From NCBI GenBank assembly GCA_050740975.1, contig JBOIEE010000334.1:1-42007 (forward strand): a DNA stretch of 42,007 nt, given 5' to 3'. The stretch is from Gammaproteobacteria bacterium. Its GTDB lineage: Bacteria; Pseudomonadota; Gammaproteobacteria; JBOHHR01. Below, piece by piece: positions 7,350 through 18,864 of this stretch (the first letter of the stretch is position 1; each line of letters opens with the position of its first letter). A model generated the notes under the pieces. The model was not told where the DNA came from. It was given only the letters and a program-made list of their open reading frames with translations, and searched no databases. The position numbers were made by a program, and so were the translations under genes.

Positions 7350-7839
7350 AATCGGCTCGCTCCTGGAGCGCATGGCGCAAGGTCTGACCGAGACCTTGGC
7401 CGGTAGAGGGCATGTCGATCCGCTAGTGGTCGGTATTCACACCGGGGGGGTGTGGATCGCGCAATGCTTGCGGGAGGGACTCGGTGTTCCCGAGCCGCTG
7501 GGCAGCTTAAACATTGCGTTTTATCGTGATGACTTTAGCCGCCTCGGTATGCATCCGAGCGTCAAACCGTCCCATTTGCCGTTCGATATCGATGGGCGCC
7601 ATGTGATCTTGGTGGATGACATCCTCTACACCGGCCGGACGGTACGCGCCGCGCTCAACGAGATCTTTGACTATGGCCGCCCGGCCAGCGTCACCCTTGC
7701 GGTTTTAGTCGATCGTTGCCAGCGGGAGTTGCCCATCAGGGCCGATGTTGTAGGTACTACCCTAGCGCTTGCGCACGGGGAGCACATCAAGCTCAGCGGC
7801 CCGCATCCCTTGCGATTGATCACCCACAAGGCGGTATGA
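7327..7839 (+). CDS. pyrR: Bifunctional pyr operon regulator / uracil phosphoribosyltransferase PyrR
   Basis: PRPP-binding motif [18 protein letters not shown] and a GI.TGG.W.A N-terminal part. I chose the ATG at 7327 (track ORF starts at 7264). The stop overlaps the pyrB start (ATGA at 7836-7839). Confidence 0.9.
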
Positions 7840-8810
7840 CGGGATCGAATATCCAGCTTGATGGGCAGGGGCATCTCAAACATTTTTTGAGTATTGAAGG
7901 GCTTCCCCGGGAACTGCTGCTCGAGATCCTAACCACCGCCGAAGGCTTTGCGCCGGTCGGGAGGAGGCCGGTTAAGAAAGTCCCGCTGCTGCGCGGCAAG
8001 ACGATTGTCAATCTCTTCTTCGAGCCCAGTACCCGCACCCGCATCACCTTCGAGCTGGCCGCGAAACGGCTCTCCGCCGATGTCTTGACGCTCAACGTCG
8101 GCGACTCGTCCACCAGCAAGGGTGAGTCGTTGCTGGATACACTGCGCAACTTGGAGGCGATGCACTGCGATATGTTCGTGATCCGCCACGAGTGCAGTGG
8201 TGCGGCGCACTTTATTGCTAGCCACGTTTGCTCTGAGGTACGGGTTATTAATGCGGGCGACGGCCGCCATGCCCATCCCACTCAAGCGATGCTGGATATG
8301 TTCACCATCGGTCGCGCGAAAGGGGATTTTGGCGCGTTGTGCGTGGCGATTGTGGGGGATATCGCGCATTCGCGGGTGGCGCGCTCCAACATGCACGCTC
8401 TTAGAACTTTGGGAGCGCGTGAGGTGCGGGTCATTGGCCCGAGGACTCTGATCCCTCCCGAGATAGAAACTCTGGGGGTGCGCGTTTATCACGATCTTAA
8501 GTCCGGATTGCAGGATGTGGATGCGATCATCATGCTGCGGCTGCAAAATGAACGCATGCAGGGGGCTCTGCTGCCCAGTGCGCGCGAATTCTTTGAGCTC
8601 TATGGGCTGACGGAGGAGCGGCTGGCGGTGGCCAAGCCGGACGCCATCGTTTTGCACCCTGGACCCATCAATCGCGGTGTAGAGATCGACTCCCAGGTCG
8701 CTAACGGCCCGCGCTCGGTGATCCTGGACCAGGTGAGCTATGGCATCGCGGTACGCATGGCGGTTATGTCCATGGTGATGAGCAGCGCGGCTAAACCGGA
8801 GCCGCGCTGA
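7836..8810 (+). CDS. pyrB: Aspartate carbamoyltransferase catalytic subunit
   Basis: [14 protein letters not shown] and HPGP motifs. Internal ATG at 7836 of track ORF 7716-8810. Confidence 0.95.
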
Positions 8811-8811
8811 G

Positions 8812-10110
8812 ATGCAGCTCTTGATCGCCAATGGCCGTGTTATCGATCCCGAAAAGGGTTTTGACGAAGTCACCGATCTCTATGTCCGTGCCGGCAAAAT
8901 CGAGAGCATAGGTAGCGCTCCCCAGGACTTCAAGCCAGAGCGTGTCATCGACGCCAGCCATCTGGTGGTAAGCCCCGGTTTTGTAGACTTGAGCGCGCGG
9001 CTGGGTGGAGGAGAGGCCGAGCATGGGGCCACCATCGTCAGCGAAACACAAGCCGCCGCTCGCGCTGGCATTACCACCTTGTGTTGTCCGCCGGATACCA
9101 CACCGGTGCTGGACATGCCAGCGGTGGCGGAGCTGATTCATCGACGCGCTCAGCAGGCAGGTTTAGCCAAGGTGCGTTGTTTAGGAGCCCTTACCCGGAG
9201 TTTGGGTGGGGAACAATTGGCCGAAATGTACGCCTTGAAGGCTATCGGTTGCGTTGGGGTGAGCAACGCTGGAAGAGCGGTGTATAACACCGAGGTACTG
9301 CGCCGCGCCCTAGAGTATGCGGGGACTTGCGGGTTGCCGGTGGTGCTACAAGCCGAGGACCATTGGTTAGGCGGTCTGGGACACATGCACGAGGGCCGCG
9401 TCAGCACCCGCCTGGGGATCCCGGGGATCCCCGAAACGGCGGAGACCGTGGCCTTGAGCCGCGATTTGCTATTGGTCGAGCAGACCGGCGTGCGCACGCA
9501 TTTCGCCCGACTTTCAACGGCCAAAGCGGTAGAGCTGCTGGCACAGGCTCAGGCCCGGGGATTGCCGGTCAGCGCCGATGTCACCATCCATCATTTGCAT
9601 CTAACCCATGACGCGGTGGGCGATTTCGATAGCATGTGCTATATACGGCCGCCGTTGCGCACAGCCGCCGACCGTAAGGCGCTGCGTGCCGCCGTCGCCC
9701 GCGGTGTCATTGCCGCCATCTGCTCGGATCACCAGCCGCATGATGTAGACGCCAAGACCGCTCCATTCGGTGCCACAGAGCCGGGAATGTCGGCTCTGGA
9801 GCTGCTGCTGCCCCTGACGCTAGAGTTGGTCCGCGGCCAGGTGTTGGATCTGTCCACGGCGATCGCCGCGATTACCTGCCGGGCCGCGCGGGTGTTGGGG
9901 ATGCAGGCAGGCACATTAGCAATCGGTGCGAGTGCCGATGTGTGTGTGTTTGATCCCGAGCGCAGATGGATTTTGACCGAAGAAAGCTTGTTGAGCGCGG
10001 GTAAGAACTCGCCGTTCCTCGGGCGCGAACTGGTGGGTAAAGTGACCCACACGCTGTTAGACGGGGAAGTGGTGTTTGACGAGGAGGCGGATGCCCCCGC
10101 TGCACGATAG
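8812..10110 (+). CDS. pyrC': Dihydroorotase-like protein, probably the non-catalytic PyrC' type
   Basis: Amidohydrolase fold (SPGFVDL.., CSDHQPH) directly after pyrB. The first metal-binding HxH motif is replaced (PGFVDLSARL where active enzymes have D.H.H.R). Confidence 0.8.
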   Translation: MQLLIANGRVIDPEKGFDEVTDLYVRAGKIESIGSAPQDFKPERVIDASHLVVSPGFVDLSARLGGGEAEHGATIVSETQAAARAGITTLCCPPDTTPVLDMPAVAELIHRRAQQAGLAKVRCLGALTRSLGGEQLAEMYALKAIGCVGVSNAGRAVYNTEVLRRALEYAGTCGLPVVLQAEDHWLGGLGHMHEGRVSTRLGIPGIPETAETVALSRDLLLVEQTGVRTHFARLSTAKAVELLAQAQARGLPVSADVTIHHLHLTHDAVGDFDSMCYIRPPLRTAADRKALRAAVARGVIAAICSDHQPHDVDAKTAPFGATEPGMSALELLLPLTLELVRGQVLDLSTAIAAITCRAARVLGMQAGTLAIGASADVCVFDPERRWILTEESLLSAGKNSPFLGRELVGKVTHTLLDGEVVFDEEADAPAAR

Positions 10111-10999
10111 CTCACCCCAAAGCGCACAGCCTAGGGGGACTATCTTTTTAGAAGAAGCCAGGGTGCTGTCGCACCATGCATACCCCGGTGGGCAGTACGT
10201 GTTGCGGGTCCAGGCACCCAAAACGGCCGCCAATGCCGCCCCCGGCCTATTTGTGCATCTACAGTGCGACCCCTTGCTGCCCATGCGGCGGCCCATGTCC
10301 CTGATGCGGGTAAATCCCGAACTGGGATGGATCGAGATCCTGTACAAGCGGCACGGGGTAGGAACCCAACTCTTAGCCCGGCGCGTCCCCGGGGAGACAG
10401 TGAGTGTGTTAGGACCCATAGGGGTGCCTTTCAAGCTGCAGGGTTACCGCCGCCGGGCGCTGCTCATCGGCGGTGGGGTTGGGATCCCACCCATGATCTA
10501 CCTGGCGGAGCACTTAAAATCCACAGCCCCCGAGGTTTCGGTGCTCGTGGTCATGGGTTCGGAAGCGCCCTTCCCCTTCCCAGCGATCCCCTCCCGCATC
10601 CTGGTACTTGGAGTTCCGGCGCCGGTTATCGCGGCCATGCCGCTTTTAGAGGATTGGGGGATCGCAAGTCGGCTCGCGAGTCGGCAAAGCTACCCTGGCT
10701 GTTTTGATGGATATGTTACCGATCTAGCGCGCTTTTGGCTTAACTCGCTGTTGCCCGCCGAAGGACATGAGGTGGAGCTGTTCGCCTGTGGCCCCACCCC
10801 GATGTTGCAAGTCGTCGCTGAATTGGCCCGCGAGTACGTTCTTCCCTGCCAGCTTTCGGTTGAAGAGTACATGGCGTGCGCGGTCGGTGGGTGTGCCGGT
10901 TGCACGGTCGCGGTGCGTACCCCCTCCGGGCCGGCGATGAAACGCGTTTGTGTCGACGGCCCGGTCTTCGAGGCATCGGAGCTTGTATTTGAGGCTTAG
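10091..10999 (+). CDS. PyrK-like FAD/NAD(P)-binding oxidoreductase with C-terminal 2Fe-2S motif
   Basis: RPMS (FAD-binding RxxS), GGGVGIPP (NAD-binding) and CAVGGCAGC..(16)..CVDGPVF cysteine cluster, as in the dihydroorotate dehydrogenase electron-transfer subunit. Start ambiguous (ATG 10091 after GAGGAGG, or TTG 10076). Confidence 0.7.
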   Translation: MPPLHDSSPQSAQPRGTIFLEEARVLSHHAYPGGQYVLRVQAPKTAANAAPGLFVHLQCDPLLPMRRPMSLMRVNPELGWIEILYKRHGVGTQLLARRVPGETVSVLGPIGVPFKLQGYRRRALLIGGGVGIPPMIYLAEHLKSTAPEVSVLVVMGSEAPFPFPAIPSRILVLGVPAPVIAAMPLLEDWGIASRLASRQSYPGCFDGYVTDLARFWLNSLLPAEGHEVELFACGPTPMLQVVAELAREYVLPCQLSVEEYMACAVGGCAGCTVAVRTPSGPAMKRVCVDGPVFEASELVFEA

Positions 11000-12363: not shown

Positions 12364-13572
12364 ATGGCACGTTATACGAGGTTTGATCTACTGCATAGGC
12401 ATGATGGCGGAAGCCGCCGCACAGGGTTTCGTGCGCGAGCGTTTTCACTATTTGCGGTCCTATCTCTAGTGCTATGGGGCTGTGCCTCTGCACCGGTTGC
12501 CCCTAATGCTTCAGCGGCTGCGGCTTCCGGACTGATTGTTTCGGTGGCTTTCGCGCCCGACAGTCGCCTATGGCGGGTACGCGCCACAGCCGATCGGATT
12601 TATGTAGATTACTCAGACGATTTCGGAGTGAGCTATAGCGCGCCGATCACAGTGAATGAGACACCACAGCGGATCAGAGCGTTGCCAGAAGATCGGCCGG
12701 GGCTCGCAGCCGACAAATCGGGCCGTATCGCCGTGGTTTATTACGCCGAAGAGTCCCATGGCGTGGTTCCCTATTTCAGCTACTCACTGGATAGGGGCCA
12801 GCACTTCAGTTCACCGCGGCCTTTGACCACACCCGGATCCGAGGCCGAGCATGCGATGGTGAAGCTCGTGGCCGATGATAGGGATCGTTTCTACCTGTTC
12901 TGGTATGAGACTCGCGCACACGAGCCGGGCGCATCGCTTTACTATACGGTTAGCGACAAGCCTGAGATACTGCCTGTCCCCAACCGACGGATAACCGCTA
13001 CCCTGTGCGAATGCTGCCGGCTGGCGTTGGATTTTAATCGCGACCAACAGCCGGTACTATTGGCTCGGGTCATCTTTCCAGGAAGCGTCCGGGACCATGC
13101 GTTAATTGCACTCAACCCCGAGTCAACTCGGCGTGTGACTGACGACGACTGGTATATCGAAGCTTGTCCCAAGCACGGTCCGGCGCTCTCCATTGCTGCA
13201 GACGGTCGCTATCACATCGCCTGGTTTACCCAGGGCAAAAAACGGAAGGGCTTGTTCTACGCCTACGCGGATAACCTAGGACAGAGCTTCTCGCAACCCA
13301 AGCGTTTCGGTAACCCCAAATCCCTGCCCGAACACGCCGATGTCCTCGCGCTCGGAGATCGGGTAGTGCTCACTTGGAAGGAGTTCGATGGGCAACGGAC
13401 ACGACTCTTGGCGATGCAGTCCCGCGATCGCGGTAATACGTGGTTAGCAAGCAGTGTGATCGGAGAATCGAACAGCGGATCCGATCAGCCGGACCTCATC
13501 ACTAACGGCCAGCGTACGTTCGCGTCCTGGAGCGCTCTGGATAACGGCCATAGGCTCATTCCGATCCCGTAG
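12364..13572 (+). CDS. BNR/Asp-box repeat (sialidase-like beta-propeller) lipoprotein
   Basis: Lipobox LVLWGC. Four Asp-boxes: SDDFGVSY, SLDRGQHF, ADNLGQSF and SRDRGNTW. Confidence 0.7.
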   Translation: MARYTRFDLLHRHDGGSRRTGFRARAFSLFAVLSLVLWGCASAPVAPNASAAAASGLIVSVAFAPDSRLWRVRATADRIYVDYSDDFGVSYSAPITVNETPQRIRALPEDRPGLAADKSGRIAVVYYAEESHGVVPYFSYSLDRGQHFSSPRPLTTPGSEAEHAMVKLVADDRDRFYLFWYETRAHEPGASLYYTVSDKPEILPVPNRRITATLCECCRLALDFNRDQQPVLLARVIFPGSVRDHALIALNPESTRRVTDDDWYIEACPKHGPALSIAADGRYHIAWFTQGKKRKGLFYAYADNLGQSFSQPKRFGNPKSLPEHADVLALGDRVVLTWKEFDGQRTRLLAMQSRDRGNTWLASSVIGESNSGSDQPDLITNGQRTFASWSALDNGHRLIPIP

Positions 13573-13617
13573 GTTGAAGGAGGTGCGAATGATTTCGGGG
13601 AGCGAGGTGGGCGGAGG
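13566..13617 (+). repeat. Left 52-bp direct repeat (attL-like) of the islet
   Basis: cccgtaggttgaaggaggtgcgaatgatttcggggagcgaggtgggcggagg matches 18813-18864 at 50 of 52 positions. Contains the TAG stop of the BNR gene. Confidence 0.8.
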
Positions 13618-13639
13618 GGACATAAACTCGGTACTCGAC

Positions 13640-13808
13640 TGGTCATCCGTGGCGAGGAATTTCAGCTATGGAGACAGTAAACGTTTATCGGAAGCTACGT
13701 TGGACGCAGGGAGTGTCACATAGAATCCGACTGGCTGCTGATCTACAAGTTGGACCGGAACACATCCTCTTCGAGCGCACACGGTCGCACGCGGACTTAT
13801 TTAGAGAT
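13640..13808 (+). pseudogene. Multiply frameshifted YafQ/RelE-type toxin relic
   Basis: Frame fragments ..YVGRRECHIESDWLLIYKLD and ..PEHILFERTRSHADLF match the conserved C-terminal half of YafQ-family toxins (RECHI.PDWLLIYK...L.L.RTGSHSDLF) but sit in different frames. No partner antitoxin is present. Confidence 0.5.
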
Positions 13809-13925
13809 AACGCTGATTGAAACTAGGCCTGTGGGGTTAGATCCTATAGGTCATTTACGCGATCATATTGATTGCCTTATAGTTCAATATATGGCGTCTG
13901 GTTATATCTGCCTGTTGGATGAGAA

Positions 13926-16718
13926 ATGGCCAATACTGCAAACCCAATTACGTTCTTTCGCGGAGAGCCCTTCGAGTTGTCCCGGCCCGTGTCGAGCCGC
14001 TTTTTTGACAAGTTCGCTCAGAAATGGCGTCAACCGTTAGGAGAGGGAAGGCGGCCCCTCTTTGTGCTTGGCGCAGGAGTATCGCGCGCTGCATCTGTGC
14101 CAATGATGTCCGATATGCTTAGCCACCTAAGCAAGCTATTGGAAGAAGCGCAGCAGGACCAGACTACCGATAGTGCTCTAGGGGAAGCGCGCTTATACTC
14201 CGAACAAGCGATTGCAACGCGCGGTCGTACTGATTGTGCGCTGCTCTTTGGGGCGTTACAGGATTCGGAGAAACCAGAGGCAAGGGACGTATGGCGCACG
14301 TTCTGCCAGGACTTCATTTCTGGGGAGATTACCACTGATGCGCAACCGCCGGCGCATACCTCCCTATTCGAGGCCCAACCCACTGAGACGCACCAGTGGA
14401 TCGCAGATCTAGTAGTTACGTCTCAGGCGCAATGCATAAGTCTCAATTTCGATGGCCTCACCCGAAAAGCCATCGACAACATGCTCAGGAGCAAGAATGG
14501 ATCCGGTAAATGTGTGATCCTGGACACGGCTGAAAAGATAACGAACTTCATAGGCCGCGATCCAAGAAGCAATGAGGCAAAGCACCTGCGGTCTATAATC
14601 AAGCTGCGGGGAGACGTATTCTACGCCATCTGTGTTACGCCTGGCTGTCCTCTCTCAGAGATCCAGACTCCCGTTTATGACCTCCCGACCTCCGACCCAA
14701 AGCAGCGCCTAACGTGTCCTGAGTGCAAATGCCAGAGAAACCTCCAGATTGCGTTTCCGGGGCACCACGATAAAGAGCGGGAAAGCGAAGCGATTCTTGA
14801 CGCCGCATGGCGGTACCTAGTTCCGTCCACTTCATTGTTCATGATCATGGGCTTCAGTGGCGAATGGGATGGCAGCGTTGTCGAATTTGTTTTCTCGGCA
14901 GCACAACTGCTAAGCGTCCCAGTTATTGACGTCCGGATTAAACCGGACGAGGAGTCTTCGCATTACATTAAAGATATTTGGTGTCAGCGGTTCCCACGGG
15001 TAGAGTATCAGCCCATTTACTGCACTGCGGATGAATTCGCCACCCGCGCTGCAAACAATGTTAGTGCCAGGAATAACGCTGAGGTCATTGCAGTGGTCGG
15101 CTGCCCAGTCATAAAGCCTAAGCCCTTGCCCGCAGACCACATTTGGGACACCAGAGGGACAGACGTGCGTCCTATGATCGGTCAGATCTGCGCAGCCGAC
15201 GACTTTCGCAGTTTGGAGAACTACTCACAGTTAGGGCTTAAGACCTTCTGGTGGGGGGCGGTAGGGAGTTTCCAACTACACGACCGATATCACCACTCCA
15301 TTGGAACGATGCGAGTCGCTTCAAGATGGCATGGATGCCTCACGGATTGTGCTTTTTCGAATGACCTTTCAAGAGCAAGTGACAGAGAAAACGAATTCTT
15401 GGCTATTGCGGCATTGCTGCACGACTATGGACATCTCCCATTTTCACACTTGTTTGAAGAGATATTCGACGAGCTACATTGGACGACGGTGAATTCCTCG
15501 GGCAAACCATGGCACGAGGTCCTGACCCACAAAAAGATCCGCGAGCTGGTCGCCATGGATATCGCTGGTAAGCAAGATGCTGTTAAAATGTACACTGAAT
15601 ATCTCGGATTTACGGTCGATCAATTGCTCAGTTTGATAGATGGATGTCTTGGAAAGCCTTATCTCGACGCACTTGTTAATAGCCCCCTCGACGCAGACAA
15701 GATCGATTATGTATTTCGTGACCTCTACTTCCTTGAAATGGCGGGCAAGCTGGAACATAGAAGGCTTGGGAATAGCGTAGGAGATCCTATAGCGTGGCGA
15801 GATGATTTCTTTCGAGAACAAGAGCTATCCCCGGAGCAACTAATTCGTCTCAACGGCCGTTCTGCTTTAAGATTGCTGGAACTTCTCGAGACACGACGAA
15901 ATCTGTATTTTAAGTTTTACCTTTCTCCTGAAATGCGTGTGATGGAGCGGATTACGGCCTTCGTAATGACTAATTATCTCGCGCACGTCATATCAAGAAA
16001 GCTAGGTGATGAGATTCGAGATAGCGATCAGCCGTTCGAATACGATCACGGCGATCTGAAAGTTCGCCTCGCAACCGATAACATCCTTGGCAAGTACGAC
16101 AACGTGATGATCAACCACAGCACTAATAAGTATAAGGAGCTCCCCCTGTTGGGTGTGCTCCTGGAAGAGTTGCTGGAGGACGGGTTTCCGATTGACGATG
16201 TCCCGCGTGAGGTGCTCAAGAAACTTAAGGATACGCTGAATAGATTCCCGAAAGATCGAGACGAAGGCCCATTCGGGGTGACAGTAAGGGACGTATATAA
16301 GGATTTGCACGTTGGTGGACCGTATTATTTCGACTCGTCGCATGAAGGAAAGATTAGGGACATGGTTAGAGAACTAACCTTGCTCTATCAGGGTTCAGTG
16401 CTGTTCGATGTTGTTAAGACTCCGCGCTTCCTTGCTGGGGCAAAAACAAGAAGATATCGTCGCTTGTGGGCCAATGGAGAGGTTATCGGAGAGACGTTTC
16501 TAGTGCCGTCCATTAATCCAATGAAATGGACAGTCAAGACACGTGCCGCGGTTCCGTTAGGCGCTGTAGATTTCGGGCAACTCGAACGTCAGTACCTTCA
16601 GGTGATTGTCTTTGACCCGCTAGGTTATCCTACAAAGGCTCGTTTCGTTGACCAAGAGTTTCGGCGCAGATGCCGTGCGAGTGGCGTCGATTTTATGGAC
16701 ACAATTACGTCGAATTGA
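13926..16718 (+). CDS. Fusion protein: N-terminal sirtuin (SIR2)-like domain with Zn-ribbon, plus C-terminal SAMHD1/COG1078-type HD phosphohydrolase domain
   Basis: SIR2 motifs: GAGVS (aa 49-53), HQWIADL..ISLNFDGL (156-178), and Cys236/241/264/267. HD motifs: HDRYHHSIG (452-460), LLHDYGHLPFSH (497-508), DADKIDYVFRD (589-599). First ATG after an in-frame stop. 930 aa. Confidence 0.85.
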   Translation: MANTANPITFFRGEPFELSRPVSSRFFDKFAQKWRQPLGEGRRPLFVLGAGVSRAASVPMMSDMLSHLSKLLEEAQQDQTTDSALGEARLYSEQAIATRGRTDCALLFGALQDSEKPEARDVWRTFCQDFISGEITTDAQPPAHTSLFEAQPTETHQWIADLVVTSQAQCISLNFDGLTRKAIDNMLRSKNGSGKCVILDTAEKITNFIGRDPRSNEAKHLRSIIKLRGDVFYAICVTPGCPLSEIQTPVYDLPTSDPKQRLTCPECKCQRNLQIAFPGHHDKERESEAILDAAWRYLVPSTSLFMIMGFSGEWDGSVVEFVFSAAQLLSVPVIDVRIKPDEESSHYIKDIWCQRFPRVEYQPIYCTADEFATRAANNVSARNNAEVIAVVGCPVIKPKPLPADHIWDTRGTDVRPMIGQICAADDFRSLENYSQLGLKTFWWGAVGSFQLHDRYHHSIGTMRVASRWHGCLTDCAFSNDLSRASDRENEFLAIAALLHDYGHLPFSHLFEEIFDELHWTTVNSSGKPWHEVLTHKKIRELVAMDIAGKQDAVKMYTEYLGFTVDQLLSLIDGCLGKPYLDALVNSPLDADKIDYVFRDLYFLEMAGKLEHRRLGNSVGDPIAWRDDFFREQELSPEQLIRLNGRSALRLLELLETRRNLYFKFYLSPEMRVMERITAFVMTNYLAHVISRKLGDEIRDSDQPFEYDHGDLKVRLATDNILGKYDNVMINHSTNKYKELPLLGVLLEELLEDGFPIDDVPREVLKKLKDTLNRFPKDRDEGPFGVTVRDVYKDLHVGGPYYFDSSHEGKIRDMVRELTLLYQGSVLFDVVKTPRFLAGAKTRRYRRLWANGEVIGETFLVPSINPMKWTVKTRAAVPLGAVDFGQLERQYLQVIVFDPLGYPTKARFVDQEFRRRCRASGVDFMDTITSN

Positions 16719-16735: not shown

Positions 16736-17842
16736 ATGGGAAACGTATCCTGGTTTACGTACGAATGTATTTTTGGATCCGTGCACCATCTGAAGGCAAT
16801 TGAATTTATTAATGAGAAGGAGAACCAAAGACTTGAGGGCTTTTACCGGGCACTTCCAAACGTCAGAGCGGAGGTATCTCCCGACGTTTCGAGCGCAATC
16901 GGCCGCTTCTTGACAACGAGTGAGATCTCCCTGGCAGATAACGAACGGCTAGAGCGGTGCTTGGCAGACCTGCTTATGAATAACATGCATCGATATCTTC
17001 GAGAAGAAGGTCCGGTTCTACTCGTGGAGGGACCCCCGCTCTCAAAACTGATTGGGCGCATTGGTTACCGGTACCCGCGCCCCGAAGTGACCATTGCGTT
17101 TGTCACAATTCGACCAGAATACCTACCCCAGCCTGGTGGGGCATCGGTGATGTCGGATGGTTGGAACGGTCCTTTCCCGGGGTTACAGGAAGATACGGTC
17201 CGAAGGACATATTTCCGATACAAACCAATTCCTATACGACTGGACATTTTCGCACAGGGATTGCAACGGTTCCGTCCGCTATGCAAAAAGGGAGGTGTCC
17301 CCATGGGCGTTACAGCAAAACTGAGGGCAATTTCTGAAGATGTCCTAAAGTTCGCGGATTATCTGAATCAGCGAGAGGCCCAAAGCCAGCCGAGATATAT
17401 TGCCGGACAACCGAAGAGGTTCACTCCTGTCGCAGACGAGGGTACGATCAATGAAAACTTAGCGGAGGCAGCGAGAGGTGGCAAGGCCGATGCTAGTAGC
17501 AAGAAGAGGGAACCTCGAACACCCAATCGGTCGACCGATCCATCAGTGGAGCGGGGAAAACGCGACCTCGTCAGGGCCCTCACCTCTGTTCCCGAGGACG
17601 CAATCCTCGATACGATCTTTGACAAAACGGACCGGCACATTAGGAAGGCTAACGGCGACCTGGTTAAGCAGTTTTTGGCAGAGAGGGGACTTGGAACAAT
17701 AGACGAAAAGCAGAACAAACAATTGTTGATATTTGTACAGAAAAGAATTATCGAGGAGCGCAAGGAGCGGCCATATAGATTGACTGTTCAGGACTTGGAA
17801 AGATGGTATGCAGAATTTAAGGGAGACGAGGGACGGAGCTAG
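16736..17842 (+). CDS. Hypothetical protein with no recognisable motif (middle gene of the operon)
   Basis: ATG at 16736 preceded by AGGAGG (16725-16730), 17 nt after the gene 1 stop. 368 aa, with a charged Lys/Arg/Glu-rich C-terminal third. Confidence 0.7.
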   Translation: MGNVSWFTYECIFGSVHHLKAIEFINEKENQRLEGFYRALPNVRAEVSPDVSSAIGRFLTTSEISLADNERLERCLADLLMNNMHRYLREEGPVLLVEGPPLSKLIGRIGYRYPRPEVTIAFVTIRPEYLPQPGGASVMSDGWNGPFPGLQEDTVRRTYFRYKPIPIRLDIFAQGLQRFRPLCKKGGVPMGVTAKLRAISEDVLKFADYLNQREAQSQPRYIAGQPKRFTPVADEGTINENLAEAARGGKADASSKKREPRTPNRSTDPSVERGKRDLVRALTSVPEDAILDTIFDKTDRHIRKANGDLVKQFLAERGLGTIDEKQNKQLLIFVQKRIIEERKERPYRLTVQDLERWYAEFKGDEGRS

Positions 17843-17844
17843 GC

Positions 17845-18732
17845 GTGCGCTATAGAAGCGAGCGAGTGCTAACCTTTTCACGCTATTGGGGTGCGCCACA
17901 CCCTGTCATCGCGATGGAGAGGGCCATCGACGCTGCTTTTCCCGACCTCGACCGAATGCAGCCACCAATCGATCTTCGGAAACTGGGAGAGCGTAGGGGT
18001 ATCAAAGTTGTCGAGCGCCCAATCGACGCTGATGGCCTTATTTTTCGGGCCGAAGATGAAGGATATGTAGTCGTCCTAAACACGCGTGCCCAAGAGGAGC
18101 GGCGGCGTTTTACCCTTGCACATGAGATTGCTCACACTTTTTTCTTTGACGCGGAAGGCTGCCGCGGCTATGAAACTACAGCGAGTCGCGGTGAAGTCAG
18201 ACGCGAGGTTGATCCAGAGGAAGAGCATTTATGCGATTATGGGGCAGCCAAGATCCTAATGCCTAAGGGATTAATCGCGCCGCTGCTCGACACATTTGGG
18301 CCAAGTGCCCATTTTGTTGTTCAGGTCGCGAGAACGTTCAAGGTGTCAATGCGGGCTAGTGCGCGGCATCTGGTTAAGATTAGCGATACAAAGATTGTAG
18401 TGGGATATTGGGAATATCGAGCCTCGCGTGGGCAGTTCGAGACATCGTGGGTAGAGGGGCGAGAGACCGCCAAAGGCAGAAGGGCGATGGCAGTGGGAAA
18501 AGACCAGCCAATATTCGACGACTTCCTAGCAGCGCAGGATTTTCGTGGTAGGAGATGGATGTCTTTGGGAGGGGACCTACAGCATTATTTTGTGGATGCA
18601 GTGTTCCTGAAGGGTACGCCGCGACGATGGCTTACTGAGATTGTGCTTGATCCCATCGCCGAGAGGGGGTTTGTGGGGCGATCGACGCGGATAGCAGGTT
18701 TAAGTGGCGAGGTTCCTGGCCACCTGCGTTAG
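17845..18732 (+). CDS. ImmA/IrrE-family (COG2856, peptidase M78-like) zinc metalloprotease
   Basis: HEIAH (aa 93-97, nt 18121-18135) followed by EEEHLCDYGAAKILMP, the family's third-ligand / FA..LLMP-like motif. GTG start 2 nt after the gene 2 stop (alternative ATG at 17914). I see no HTH domain. Confidence 0.8.
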   Translation: MRYRSERVLTFSRYWGAPHPVIAMERAIDAAFPDLDRMQPPIDLRKLGERRGIKVVERPIDADGLIFRAEDEGYVVVLNTRAQEERRRFTLAHEIAHTFFFDAEGCRGYETTASRGEVRREVDPEEEHLCDYGAAKILMPKGLIAPLLDTFGPSAHFVVQVARTFKVSMRASARHLVKISDTKIVVGYWEYRASRGQFETSWVEGRETAKGRRAMAVGKDQPIFDDFLAAQDFRGRRWMSLGGDLQHYFVDAVFLKGTPRRWLTEIVLDPIAERGFVGRSTRIAGLSGEVPGHLR

Positions 18733-18812: not shown

Positions 18813-18864
18813 CCCGTAGGTTGGAGGAGGTGCGAATGATTTCGGGGGGCGAGGTGGGCGGAGG
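18813..18864 (+). repeat. Right 52-bp direct repeat (attR-like) of the islet
   Basis: cccgtaggttggaggaggtgcgaatgatttcggggggcgaggtgggcggagg. Flanking sequence on both sides is unrelated to that around the left copy. Confidence 0.8.

What the first reader, a model, noticed from the sequence alone, without database searches (positions are those of the whole stretch)
14070..14760. The SIR2 domain keeps its NAD-pocket and Zn-ribbon motifs, but the catalytic His position appears to be Arg
Seen: GAGVS (aa 49-53), THQWIADL...ISLNFDGL (155-178) and Cys236/Cys241/Cys264/Cys267 line up with the sirtuin GAGxS, TQNIDxL and CxxC...CxxC elements. The segment that aligns by eye with the conserved ..(E/K)LHG(S/T).. 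strand reads IIKLRGD (aa 224-230; Arg228 = cgg at 14607-14609). Established: the His of this HG motif is required for sirtuin deacylation and for NADase activity in the defence SIR2 domains tested. Inference: the domain may be a catalytically altered NAD(+)- or ADP-ribose-binding sensor that regulates the HD domain, rather than an NADase effector. Alternatively my by-eye alignment is off by a strand (His220 lies 8 residues upstream).
Basis: partly seen in the sequence, partly recalled or inferred. Interest (0 to 1): 0.6.

Follow-up and report, generated by a model that had tools for sequence, protein, structure and literature searches.

The report
Histidine-less SIR2 domain on a dNTPase
A 930-residue protein joins a SAMHD1-type dNTP-degrading enzyme to a sirtuin-fold domain that keeps its NAD pocket but, in every relative found, lacks the catalytic histidine, so the domain probably binds a nucleotide and controls the enzyme rather than destroying NAD+.

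Summary
ORF 13926-16718 (+) encodes GAGVS (aa 49-53), SLNFDGL (172-178), IIKLRGD (224-230; Arg228 = CGG at 14607-14609) and Cys236/241/264/267.

The N-terminal 400 aa fold as SIR2 (VIA-align Z 18.5 to SPARSA SIR2, 17.0 to Sir2-Af1). Two independent profile-profile alignments put Arg228 on the invariant His of the HG motif: CobB sirtuins (E 5.6e-11) and defence-type SIR2_2 (E 1.3e-12).

This is not a strain mutation. Of 149 relatives with this column, 114 have R, 21 W, 8 K, 5 N and 1 G, never His, and the states are fixed clade by clade. His220 is not conserved. The seven other invariant SIR2_2 positions are kept.

Residues 410-930 are a complete SAMHD1-like catalytic core (Z 22.2) with invariant catalytic residues. 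Fused and split forms always sit in one cassette: SIR2-like, HD, an orphan protein and an M78 protease. The cassette occurs in MAGs of six phyla.

I read the domain as a ligand-binding control module for the dNTPase (about 50%). This is untested. An NAD-consuming enzyme with altered chemistry stays possible.

The scan had noted this operon before, on this same window only.

The parts
13926..16718 (+). Gene for the 930-aa SIR2-like / SAMHD1-type HD fusion protein (P0001). The true start is ATG 13926.
   Evidence: ORF list and translation. An in-frame stop lies directly upstream. Homologues conserve the N-terminal 60 aa including GRxPLFxIGAGVSR. The database gene call (867 aa, starts at Met64) cuts off this loop.
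13926..15125 (+). SIR2-fold domain, aa 1-400.
   Evidence: AlphaFold2 model: pLDDT 78, pTM 0.80. Foldseek probability 1.0 to SIR2 structures. VIA-align Z 18.5 (8y80_E), 17.4 (8wld_E), 17.0 (1ici_B). hhalign to sirtuins and SIR2_2.
14070..14084 (+). GAGVS dinucleotide-phosphate loop, aa 49-53.
   Evidence: G49 and S53 are invariant and G51 nearly so in 124 relatives that have this column. The loop aligns with GAGxS of sirtuins and SIR2_2.
14445..14453 (+). N174-F175-D176 of SLNFDGL, equivalent to the sirtuin QNxD / SIR2_2 TTNxD motif.
   Evidence: N in 145 of 146 and D in 146 of 146 relatives. Aligned with the invariant N and D of both reference families.
14607..14609 (+). Arg228 codon (CGG) at the position of the catalytic His of the HG motif.
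   Evidence: Sequence. hhalign R to H in two reference families. Family counts: R114, W21, K8, N5, G1, H0. About 6 state changes on a 114-sequence tree.
14631..14726 (+). Cys4 zinc ribbon: C236, C241, C264, C267.
   Evidence: C236 and C264 are invariant and C241 and C267 nearly invariant. They align with the two Cys pairs of CobB sirtuins.
14850..14870 (+). G309-F-S311-G312-E-W314-D315, equivalent to the sirtuin GTSxxV motif.
   Evidence: G309, S311, W314 and D315 are invariant or nearly so. Aligned with GTSG of sirtuins.
15153..16715 (+). Complete SAMHD1/EF1143-type HD dNTP triphosphohydrolase core, aa 410-930.
   Evidence: Pfam HD. Family profile against PDB: EF1143 2.5e-26, SAMHD1 2e-20. 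AlphaFold2 pLDDT 90.8. VIA-align Z 22.2 to SAMHD1 residues 114-580, covering model residues 3-515. R454, H457, D500, H503, H508, D589, K592, Y595 and D599 are invariant and H499 is kept in 69 of 70 relatives.
16736..17842 (+). Orphan middle protein (about 368 aa), a conserved cassette member.
   Evidence: Homologues follow the SIR2-like/HD genes in every locus long enough to show them. No Pfam, NCBIfam or PADLOC family.
17845..18732 (+). M78 (ImmA/IrrE/CapP-like) zinc metalloprotease with HEIAH motif, a conserved cassette member.
   Evidence: Pfam Peptidase_M78 7.4e-16 and PADLOC capP 5.8e-23. Conserved downstream in related loci.
13566..13617 (.). Left copy of the 52-nt direct repeat bounding the lower-GC islet.
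   Evidence: the repeat finder: 2 copies, 96% identical, 5247 nt apart. GC is 0.46-0.54 inside against 0.56-0.64 outside.
18813..18864 (.). Right copy of the 52-nt direct repeat.

Best explanation
The N-terminal 400 residues are a true SIR2-fold domain of a distinct, rare family. The family has lost the general-base histidine and kept the rest of the dinucleotide pocket. The domain most likely no longer carries out sirtuin or defence-SIR2 NAD+ turnover. Instead it binds NAD+ or an NAD-derived or ADP-ribose-containing ligand. It then acts as the control or assembly module of the attached SAMHD1-type dNTP triphosphohydrolase, which is the catalytic effector. It takes the place that the SAM domain and the allosteric nucleotide sites hold in SAMHD1. 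The protein works in a mobile three-gene cassette with an orphan protein and an M78 protease, and the cassette is probably anti-phage. Shown here: the fold, the residue equivalence, family-wide absence of His, conservation of the pocket and of the HD catalytic set, and conservation of the cassette in fused and split forms. Inferred: ligand binding, regulation of the dNTPase, and the defence role.
For: Fold: Foldseek probability 1.0. VIA-align Z 18.5/17.4/17.0 to SPARSA SIR2, SIR2-HerA and the Sir2-Af1-NAD complex over the whole domain.

Residue equivalence: R228 aligns with the invariant catalytic His in two independent profile-profile alignments.

Family-wide loss: 0 His in 149 sequences with this column (R114/W21/K8/N5/G1). 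States are fixed by clade, with about 6 changes on a 114-sequence tree against 24 expected from shuffles. The site is therefore constrained but is not one chemical group. R, W and K suit stacking or binding better than acid-base catalysis (inference).

Pocket kept: seven of the eight invariant SIR2_2 columns are retained (G, G, S, N, D, the G of HG, the G of GxS). Only His is lost.

Effector intact: all HD catalytic residues are invariant or nearly so (H499 in 69 of 70) in 70 long members, and the region is a complete SAMHD1 core (Z 22.2).

Functional linkage: the SIR2-like and HD parts occur fused, or as adjacent overlapping genes, always followed by the same orphan protein and usually an M78 protease. 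This holds in Planctomycetota, Acidobacteriota, Armatimonadota, Verrucomicrobiota, Abyssobacteria and Elusimicrobia MAGs.

Predicted docking of the SIR2-like domain on the HD core: ipSAE 0.67 (median of 3 runs), best of 3 controls 0.00. That mark was reached by 58 of 80 solved complexes and 2 of 110 mismatched pairs. The runs agree in at least 62% of contacts and partner pLDDT is at least 76. The counts hold only roughly because my own alignments were used. The interface uses SIR2-like residues 206-213 and 218-219, just before the strand that carries R228. On the HD side it uses local residues 165-172 of the 410-930 segment, next to the DxDKxDY catalytic motif.

The guanine-specific allosteric residues of SAMHD1 (D137, Q142, R145; established knowledge) align with non-conserved, mostly acidic positions in this family.

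Precedent: the variant Sir2-like domain of the antiviral protein SAMD9L is proposed to be regulatory or scaffolding while another domain is the effector (bioRxiv 10.64898/2026.02.01.703102).
Against: No binding or activity data exist. N174 and D176, the residues tied to nicotinamide-ribose handling in sirtuins (established knowledge), are invariant. So is a family-specific Asp230 two residues after position 228. This is equally what an enzyme with a relocated catalytic residue would show. I could not obtain model coordinates, so residue equivalence rests on profile alignments and secondary-structure topology, not on a 3-D superposition. Neighbouring genes in related loci are mostly housekeeping, so no defence-island association supports the defence role. 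Docking of two domains of one polypeptide fits any role for the domain.
Confidence: 0.5

Rival explanations
1. The domain is still an NAD+-consuming enzyme (NAD+ glycohydrolase, cyclase or ADP-ribosyltransferase) that uses a different catalytic arrangement. The protein would then be a dual effector that depletes both NAD+ and dNTPs.
For: GxGxS, N174, D176 and GxS are invariant. A family-specific invariant Asp230 follows G229, and K283 and D315 are also invariant. The closest structures are defence NADases: SPARSA SIR2 and SIR2-HerA. In sirtuins nicotinamide cleavage depends more on the N/D pair than on the His (established knowledge, not tested here).
Against: His-to-Ala or His-to-Asn forms are used as the dead versions of several SIR2 enzymes with solved structures: DSR2 H171A and KomC H146N, SIRT2 H187A. 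Position 228 varies among R, W, K, N and G between clades. A conserved catalytic role for that side chain is therefore unlikely, and any activity must rest on other residues. No Pfam SIR2 or SIR2_2 match reaches even E 0.1.
Confidence: 0.28
2. The domain is a ligand-free scaffold that only mediates oligomerisation or docking of the HD core and the partner proteins.
For: SIR2 domains act as assembly scaffolds in SIR2-HerA, Avs5 and SAMD9L according to the SAMD9L preprint. Docking on the HD core is predicted: ipSAE 0.67 against 0.00 for the best control, where 58 of 80 solved and 2 of 110 mismatched pairs reached the mark.
Against: A pure scaffold would not need G49/G51/S53, N174, D176 and G309/S311 to stay invariant across sequences only about 20-30% identical. 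The predicted interface does not use those residues.
Confidence: 0.14
3. Arg228 is a local inactivating mutation, or the alignment is off and a His such as His220 is the catalytic residue.
For: None found.
Against: There is no His at this column in 149 relatives. H220 is His in only 8 of 154. Two independent hhalign alignments agree on R228. The only nearly invariant His, H156, aligns with the non-catalytic His of the sirtuin PxxxH motif. A small 'HANGD' subclade has His at position 226, the -2 position also occupied by His in CobB 'IHMHG'.
Confidence: 0.02

Closest known systems
Defence-type SIR2 NADases (SIR2_2, PF13289): ThsA, DSR2, SPARSA SIR2, SIR2-HerA, KomC
   Same: Same fold (Z 17-18.5). 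hhalign E 1.3e-12. Same GxGxS...P loop type, N-x-D motif, the G of HG and the GxS-equivalent G. Like them, the domain is fused or paired with a second domain in mobile, patchily distributed loci.
   Different: The invariant catalytic His is replaced (R/W/K/N/G) in every member. The family keeps a Cys4 zinc ribbon. No Pfam or PADLOC model matches significantly. The partner is a SAMHD1-type dNTPase rather than SLOG, HerA, Ago or a tail-tube sensor.
Canonical sirtuins (PF02146; CobB, Sir2Tm, Sir2-Af1, SIRT2/5)
   Same: Fold (Z about 16-17). hhalign E 5.6e-11 with colinear GAGxS, PxxxH, NxD, two Cys pairs, RP..F and GxSG motifs.
   Different: No catalytic His. The cofactor-loop FR motif and the Q of QNxD are absent. 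A large helical insert lies between GAGxS and NxD.
SAMHD1 / EF1143 dNTP triphosphohydrolases and bacterial defence dGTPases
   Same: Residues 410-930 are a complete SAMHD1-like core (Z 22.2; profile E 2.5e-26 to EF1143) with all catalytic residues.
   Different: An N-terminal SIR2-like domain replaces the SAM domain. The guanine-specific allosteric-site residues are not conserved. The gene is embedded in a cassette with an orphan protein and an M78 protease.
dGTPase-SIR2-like fusions noted in PMC13519002 (Nat Commun 2026)
   Same: That survey reports dGTPase domains fused to a SIR2-like domain in Verrucomicrobiota and a Methanophagales archaeon. One of my related loci is from a Verrucomicrobiota (Limisphaerales) MAG, so this is probably the same architecture.
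   Different: In the passages retrieved by my term search for SIR2, fusion and fused, the paper treats the SIR2-like domain as an immune module that replaces the SLOG domain of ThsA. Those passages give no residue analysis, no mention of the missing His, and no mention of the conserved partner genes.
Variant Sir2-like domain of SAMD9/SAMD9L
   Same: A sirtuin-fold domain in an antiviral multidomain protein, proposed to be regulatory or scaffolding while another domain is the effector.
   Different: SAMD9L lacks the Cys4 zinc module, which is kept here. No sequence relationship was tested. The effector there is an AlbA tRNase, not an HD dNTPase.

Membership tests
SIR2 superfamily (fold level) | Rossmann-type SIR2 fold with a small helical/zinc module | tested here: met
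   Foldseek probability 1.0, E 4e-9. VIA-align Z 18.5 (rmsd 4.5, 276 aligned) to 8y80_E and Z 17.0 (rmsd 3.5, 234 aligned) to 1ici_B.
SIR2 superfamily (fold level) | GxGxS phosphate-binding loop and N-x-D motif | tested here: met
   G49/G51/S53 and N174/D176 are invariant or nearly so, and aligned to the reference motifs.
Sirtuin deacylases (PF02146) | Catalytic His of the HG motif | tested here: not met
   R228 aligns with invariant H119 of the CobB alignment. No His at this column in 149 relatives.
Sirtuin deacylases (PF02146) | Cys4 zinc ribbon | tested here: met
   C236/C241/C264/C267 are conserved and aligned with the sirtuin Cys pairs.
Sirtuin deacylases (PF02146) | Match to the Pfam model above the gathering score | tested here: not met
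   No SIR2 or SIR2_2 hit at E <= 0.1. The window's genome gives no PF02146 match either.
Defence SIR2 NADases (SIR2_2 type) | Invariant Asn and His needed for NADase activity | tested here: not met
   The Asn is kept (N174). The His is replaced: R228 aligns with invariant H172 of the SIR2_2 alignment.
Defence SIR2 NADases (SIR2_2 type) | NAD+ hydrolysis on activation | not testable with these tools
   Needs an enzyme assay.
SAMHD1/EF1143-type dNTP triphosphohydrolase (HD superfamily) | H...HD...D metal ligands plus R164/H210/H215/Y315-type catalytic residues | tested here: met
   R454, H457, H499-D500, H503, H508, D589, K592, Y595 and D599 are invariant or nearly so in 70 relatives. Pfam HD 2.1e-6. 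Profile against EF1143 2.5e-26.
SAMHD1/EF1143-type dNTP triphosphohydrolase (HD superfamily) | Full catalytic-core fold | tested here: met
   Z 22.2, rmsd 3.4, 353 residues aligned, model 3-515 against SAMHD1 114-580.
SAMHD1/EF1143-type dNTP triphosphohydrolase (HD superfamily) | Guanine-specific allosteric site 1 (D137, Q142, R145 in human SAMHD1) | tested here: inconclusive
   The family consensus has mostly Glu at the aligned positions. This is a sequence alignment only, and EF1143-type enzymes use other allosteric arrangements.
Known anti-phage systems in PADLOC-DB v2 | Significant match of the cassette proteins to a system model | tested here: not met
   For the fusion protein only weak partial hits (E 0.004-0.04) to SIR2, PDC-S65 and dGTPase models. 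The orphan protein matches nothing. The protease matches capP at 5.8e-23.

The most novel reading that the evidence does not exclude
A SIR2-fold domain has been converted from an NAD+-destroying effector into a receptor for NAD+ or an NAD-derived signal, and it gates a SAMHD1-type dNTPase. Cellular NAD+ status, or an ADPR-type messenger, would then be coupled directly to dNTP depletion. An M78 protease and an orphan partner would add a second layer of control. This would be the first sirtuin-fold sensor described in prokaryotic immunity.
Probability: 0.3. Interest if true: 0.75.

Novelty: new variant of a known kind. Interest (0 to 1): 0.55.

Why it matters
SIR2 domains in bacterial immunity are taken to be NAD+-depleting effectors. 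A 2026 survey read SIR2-dGTPase fusions in that frame. Here a whole family (246 clusters at 50% identity) keeps seven of the eight invariant SIR2_2 pocket positions but has lost the histidine that is mutated to make dead versions of several structurally studied SIR2 enzymes. Its fused SAMHD1-like dNTPase is fully intact. The default annotation ('NADase plus dNTPase') is therefore probably wrong. If the domain is a ligand sensor, it gives a testable case of how a catalytic immune domain becomes a regulatory one, and of how a prokaryotic SAMHD1 relative is controlled without SAMHD1's allosteric nucleotide sites. If it is still an enzyme, it defines a His-independent SIR2 chemistry. Either result would be informative.

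Tried and rejected
- Direct family scans did not recognise the N-terminal domain. Pfam and NCBIfam gave no SIR2 hit. PADLOC gave only E 0.004-0.04 partial hits. phmmer against PDB gave nothing.
- A 7-sequence profile against PDB gave only sub-threshold sirtuin hits. A 114-sequence profile reached E about 2e-4 to FAM118B, SIRT5 and KomC, but those alignments stop before the HG region. Residue equivalence therefore had to come from hhalign.
- His220 as the true catalytic residue: rejected, because it is not conserved.
- Strain-specific mutation: rejected.
- His226 of the 'HANGD' subclade as a shifted catalytic His: rejected. It is the -2 position, also His in CobB, and occurs in only 7 of 154 sequences.
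- The search for related loci with the broad alignment A3 failed for lack of a conserved stretch. The narrower A2 found 10 loci.
- No relatives were found in the plasmid or phage collections.
- Only the window's own genome matched among 401 genomes sampled from its phylum.
- A defence-island association was looked for in related loci and not found. Flanking genes are a permease, an E1 dehydrogenase, a ComM-like ATPase and one transposase.
- The ESM Atlas feature search gave only sub-threshold SIR2_2 clusters (0.83).
- Literature searches found no description of a His-less SIR2 fused to an HD domain.
Full report
**The observation**

The ORF at 13926-16718 (+) translates to a 930-residue protein. 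Arg228 is CGG at 14607-14609. Two base changes separate CGG from a His codon, so a single-base read error does not explain it. An in-frame stop lies just before the ATG at 13926. Homologues conserve the first 60 residues, including GRxPLFxIGAGVSR. The 867-residue gene call held in the protein database starts at Met64 and therefore loses the phosphate-binding loop.

**Is it a SIR2 domain?**

Pfam and NCBIfam see only the HD domain, and PADLOC gives only weak partial SIR2 hits. An AlphaFold2 model of residues 1-400 (pLDDT 78, pTM 0.80) matches SIR2 structures over the whole domain.
- Foldseek probability is 1.0, with SPARSA SIR2, SIR2-HerA, SIRT2 and ThsA among the top-ranked matches.
- VIA-align gives Z 18.5 to 8y80_E, 17.4 to 8wld_E and 17.0 to the Sir2-Af1-NAD complex 1ici_B.

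**Which residue sits at the catalytic His site?**

An exhaustive profile search found 246 clusters at 50% identity related to the N-terminal domain. I aligned 114 full-length domains (A3). I compared that profile with two reference alignments built from genomes of the same phylum: 17 CobB-type sirtuins (A4) and 19 SIR2_2 defence-type domains (A7).
- Against the sirtuins, hhalign gives 97.1% probability and E 5.6e-11.
- Against SIR2_2, it gives 97.8% and E 1.3e-12.

In both alignments GAGxS, NxD, the G of HG and GxSG are colinear, and Arg228 lies on the invariant His. Against the sirtuins, PxxxH and the two Cys pairs are colinear as well. In the model, R228-G229-D230 forms the loop between strand 221-226 and strand 233-236, which leads into the zinc ribbon. 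This is the sirtuin topology. I could not obtain coordinates, so this is not a 3-D superposition.

**Conservation**

Among 154 relatives, 149 have a residue at position 228: R in 114, W in 21, K in 8, N in 5 and G in 1. None has His.
- His220 is His in only 8 sequences.
- The nearly invariant His156 aligns with the non-catalytic His of the sirtuin PxxxH motif.
- A small 'HANGD' subclade has His at position 226. This is the -2 position, which is also His in CobB 'IHMHG'.
- On a FastTree of the 114 domains, built without that column, the five residue states need about 6 changes. Shuffled labels need about 24. The residue is fixed within clades but differs between them.
- G49, S53, N174, D176, G229, D230, C236, C264, K283 and D315 are invariant.
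- G51, H156, C241, C267, G309, S311 and W314 are nearly invariant.

Of the eight invariant columns of the SIR2_2 alignment (G, G, S, N, D, H, G, G), seven are kept and only His is lost.

**The rest of the protein**

Residues 410-930 are a complete SAMHD1-type catalytic core.
- The family profile matches EF1143 at 2.5e-26 and SAMHD1 at about 2e-20.
- The model has pLDDT 90.8.
- VIA-align gives Z 22.2 over model residues 3-515 against SAMHD1 residues 114-580.
- R454, H457, D500, H503, H508, D589, K592, Y595 and D599 are invariant in 70 long relatives, and H499 is kept in 69 of 70.
- The guanine-specific allosteric residues of human SAMHD1 (D137, Q142, R145; established knowledge) align with non-conserved, mostly acidic positions. 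This is a weak hint that control works differently here.

**Context**

The gene is followed by an orphan protein (16736-17842) and an M78/CapP-like protease (17845-18732). The same order recurs in metagenomic and MAG loci from Planctomycetota, Acidobacteriota, Armatimonadota, Verrucomicrobiota, Abyssobacteria and Elusimicrobia.
- In some loci SIR2-like and HD are fused. In others they are adjacent overlapping genes of about 390-400 and 540-590 residues.
- The split HD proteins match residues 410-930 at E 5e-47 and 2e-60.
- The family is rare. Only the window's own genome matched among 401 genomes sampled from its phylum. There are no matches in the plasmid or phage collections.
- In the window the cassette lies in a lower-GC islet bounded by 52-nt direct repeats.
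- Flanking genes in related loci are mostly housekeeping. The defence role is therefore inferred from domain content, mobility and patchy distribution. It is not inferred from defence-island association.

**Coupling of the two domains**

A complex prediction of the SIR2-like domain against the HD core gave ipSAE 0.67 (median of three runs), and the best of three controls gave 0.00. That mark was reached by 58 of 80 solved complexes and 2 of 110 mismatched pairs. The runs agree in at least 62% of contacts, and partner pLDDT is at least 76. The counts hold only roughly because my own alignments were used. The model supports binding but does not show it.

The confident interface uses SIR2-like residues 40-42, 167, 206-213, 218-219, 288-301 and 317-329. 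On the HD side it uses local residues 157-172, 224-232 and 433-471 of the 410-930 segment. The 206-219 loop directly precedes the strand that carries R228. HD local residues 165-172 precede the DxDKxDY catalytic motif. That is a possible allosteric path (inference).

**Interpretation**

In several SIR2 enzymes with solved structures the His is the residue mutated to give the dead form: DSR2 H171A and KomC H146N, and SIRT2 H187A. A family that keeps every other pocket anchor but never has that His, beside a fully intact dNTPase, is most simply read as follows. The SIR2-like domain is a nucleotide-binding control or assembly module, and the HD domain is the effector.

The R/W/K variation suits a stacking or binding residue better than a catalytic base. 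I put this reading at about 50%. An altered-chemistry NAD-consuming enzyme is at about 28%, because N174, D176 and the family-specific D230 are invariant. A ligand-free scaffold is at about 14%, because invariant pocket residues that lie outside the predicted interface argue against it. An alignment error or a local mutation is effectively excluded.

**Literature**

A 2026 survey of dGTPases notes fusions to a SIR2-like domain in Verrucomicrobiota and a Methanophagales archaeon, and suggests the domain replaces the SLOG domain of ThsA. The passages my term search retrieved contain no residue analysis (PMC13519002). The SAMD9L cryo-EM preprint proposes a regulatory or scaffolding role for its variant Sir2-like domain. 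My searches found no report of a conserved His-less SIR2 domain paired with an HD dNTPase, nor of this cassette.

Earlier notes of this scan on the same window describe the operon, the islet and the HD domain. I re-tested those points here. They concern this DNA only.

Noticed in passing
window 13626-13820: Frameshifted relic of a YafQ/RelE-type toxin gene just inside the left repeat of the islet. '...DWLLIYKL...' and '...ILFERTRSHADLF' lie in two different frames.
   Followed up: partly
window 13926-14117: The database gene call for this ORF (867 aa, P0002) starts at Met64. It omits the conserved N-terminus with the GAGVS loop, which may help explain why the SIR2 domain goes unannotated.
   Followed up: yes
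G000 contig C218:12254-12643 (locus L037): The same genome carries a second, ordinary SIR2_2-type domain (PF13289, E 3.6e-23) in a 707-aa open frame. No canonical sirtuin (PF02146) was found in this 93%-complete assembly.
   Followed up: no
locus L024:3594-8168: In one metagenomic locus the HD core itself appears split into two ORFs after the stand-alone SIR2-like gene. No M78 protease was detected. A RecQ-like helicase is encoded divergently upstream.
   Followed up: partly
relatives P0130, P0142, P0144, P0148, P0154: One subclade reads (V/I)LHANGD at the motif: Asn at the His position, plus His two residues earlier, as in CobB 'IHMHG'. It forms one well-supported branch on the family tree.
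   Followed up: partly
window 7716-10999: Pyrimidine-synthesis genes lie upstream of the islet: aspartate carbamoyltransferase, dihydroorotase, and a PyrK-like electron-transfer subunit of dihydroorotate dehydrogenase.
   Followed up: no
locus L060:4465-6090: In the Limisphaerales MAG a DDE transposase lies about 0.8 kb upstream of the cassette, in keeping with mobility.
   Followed up: no
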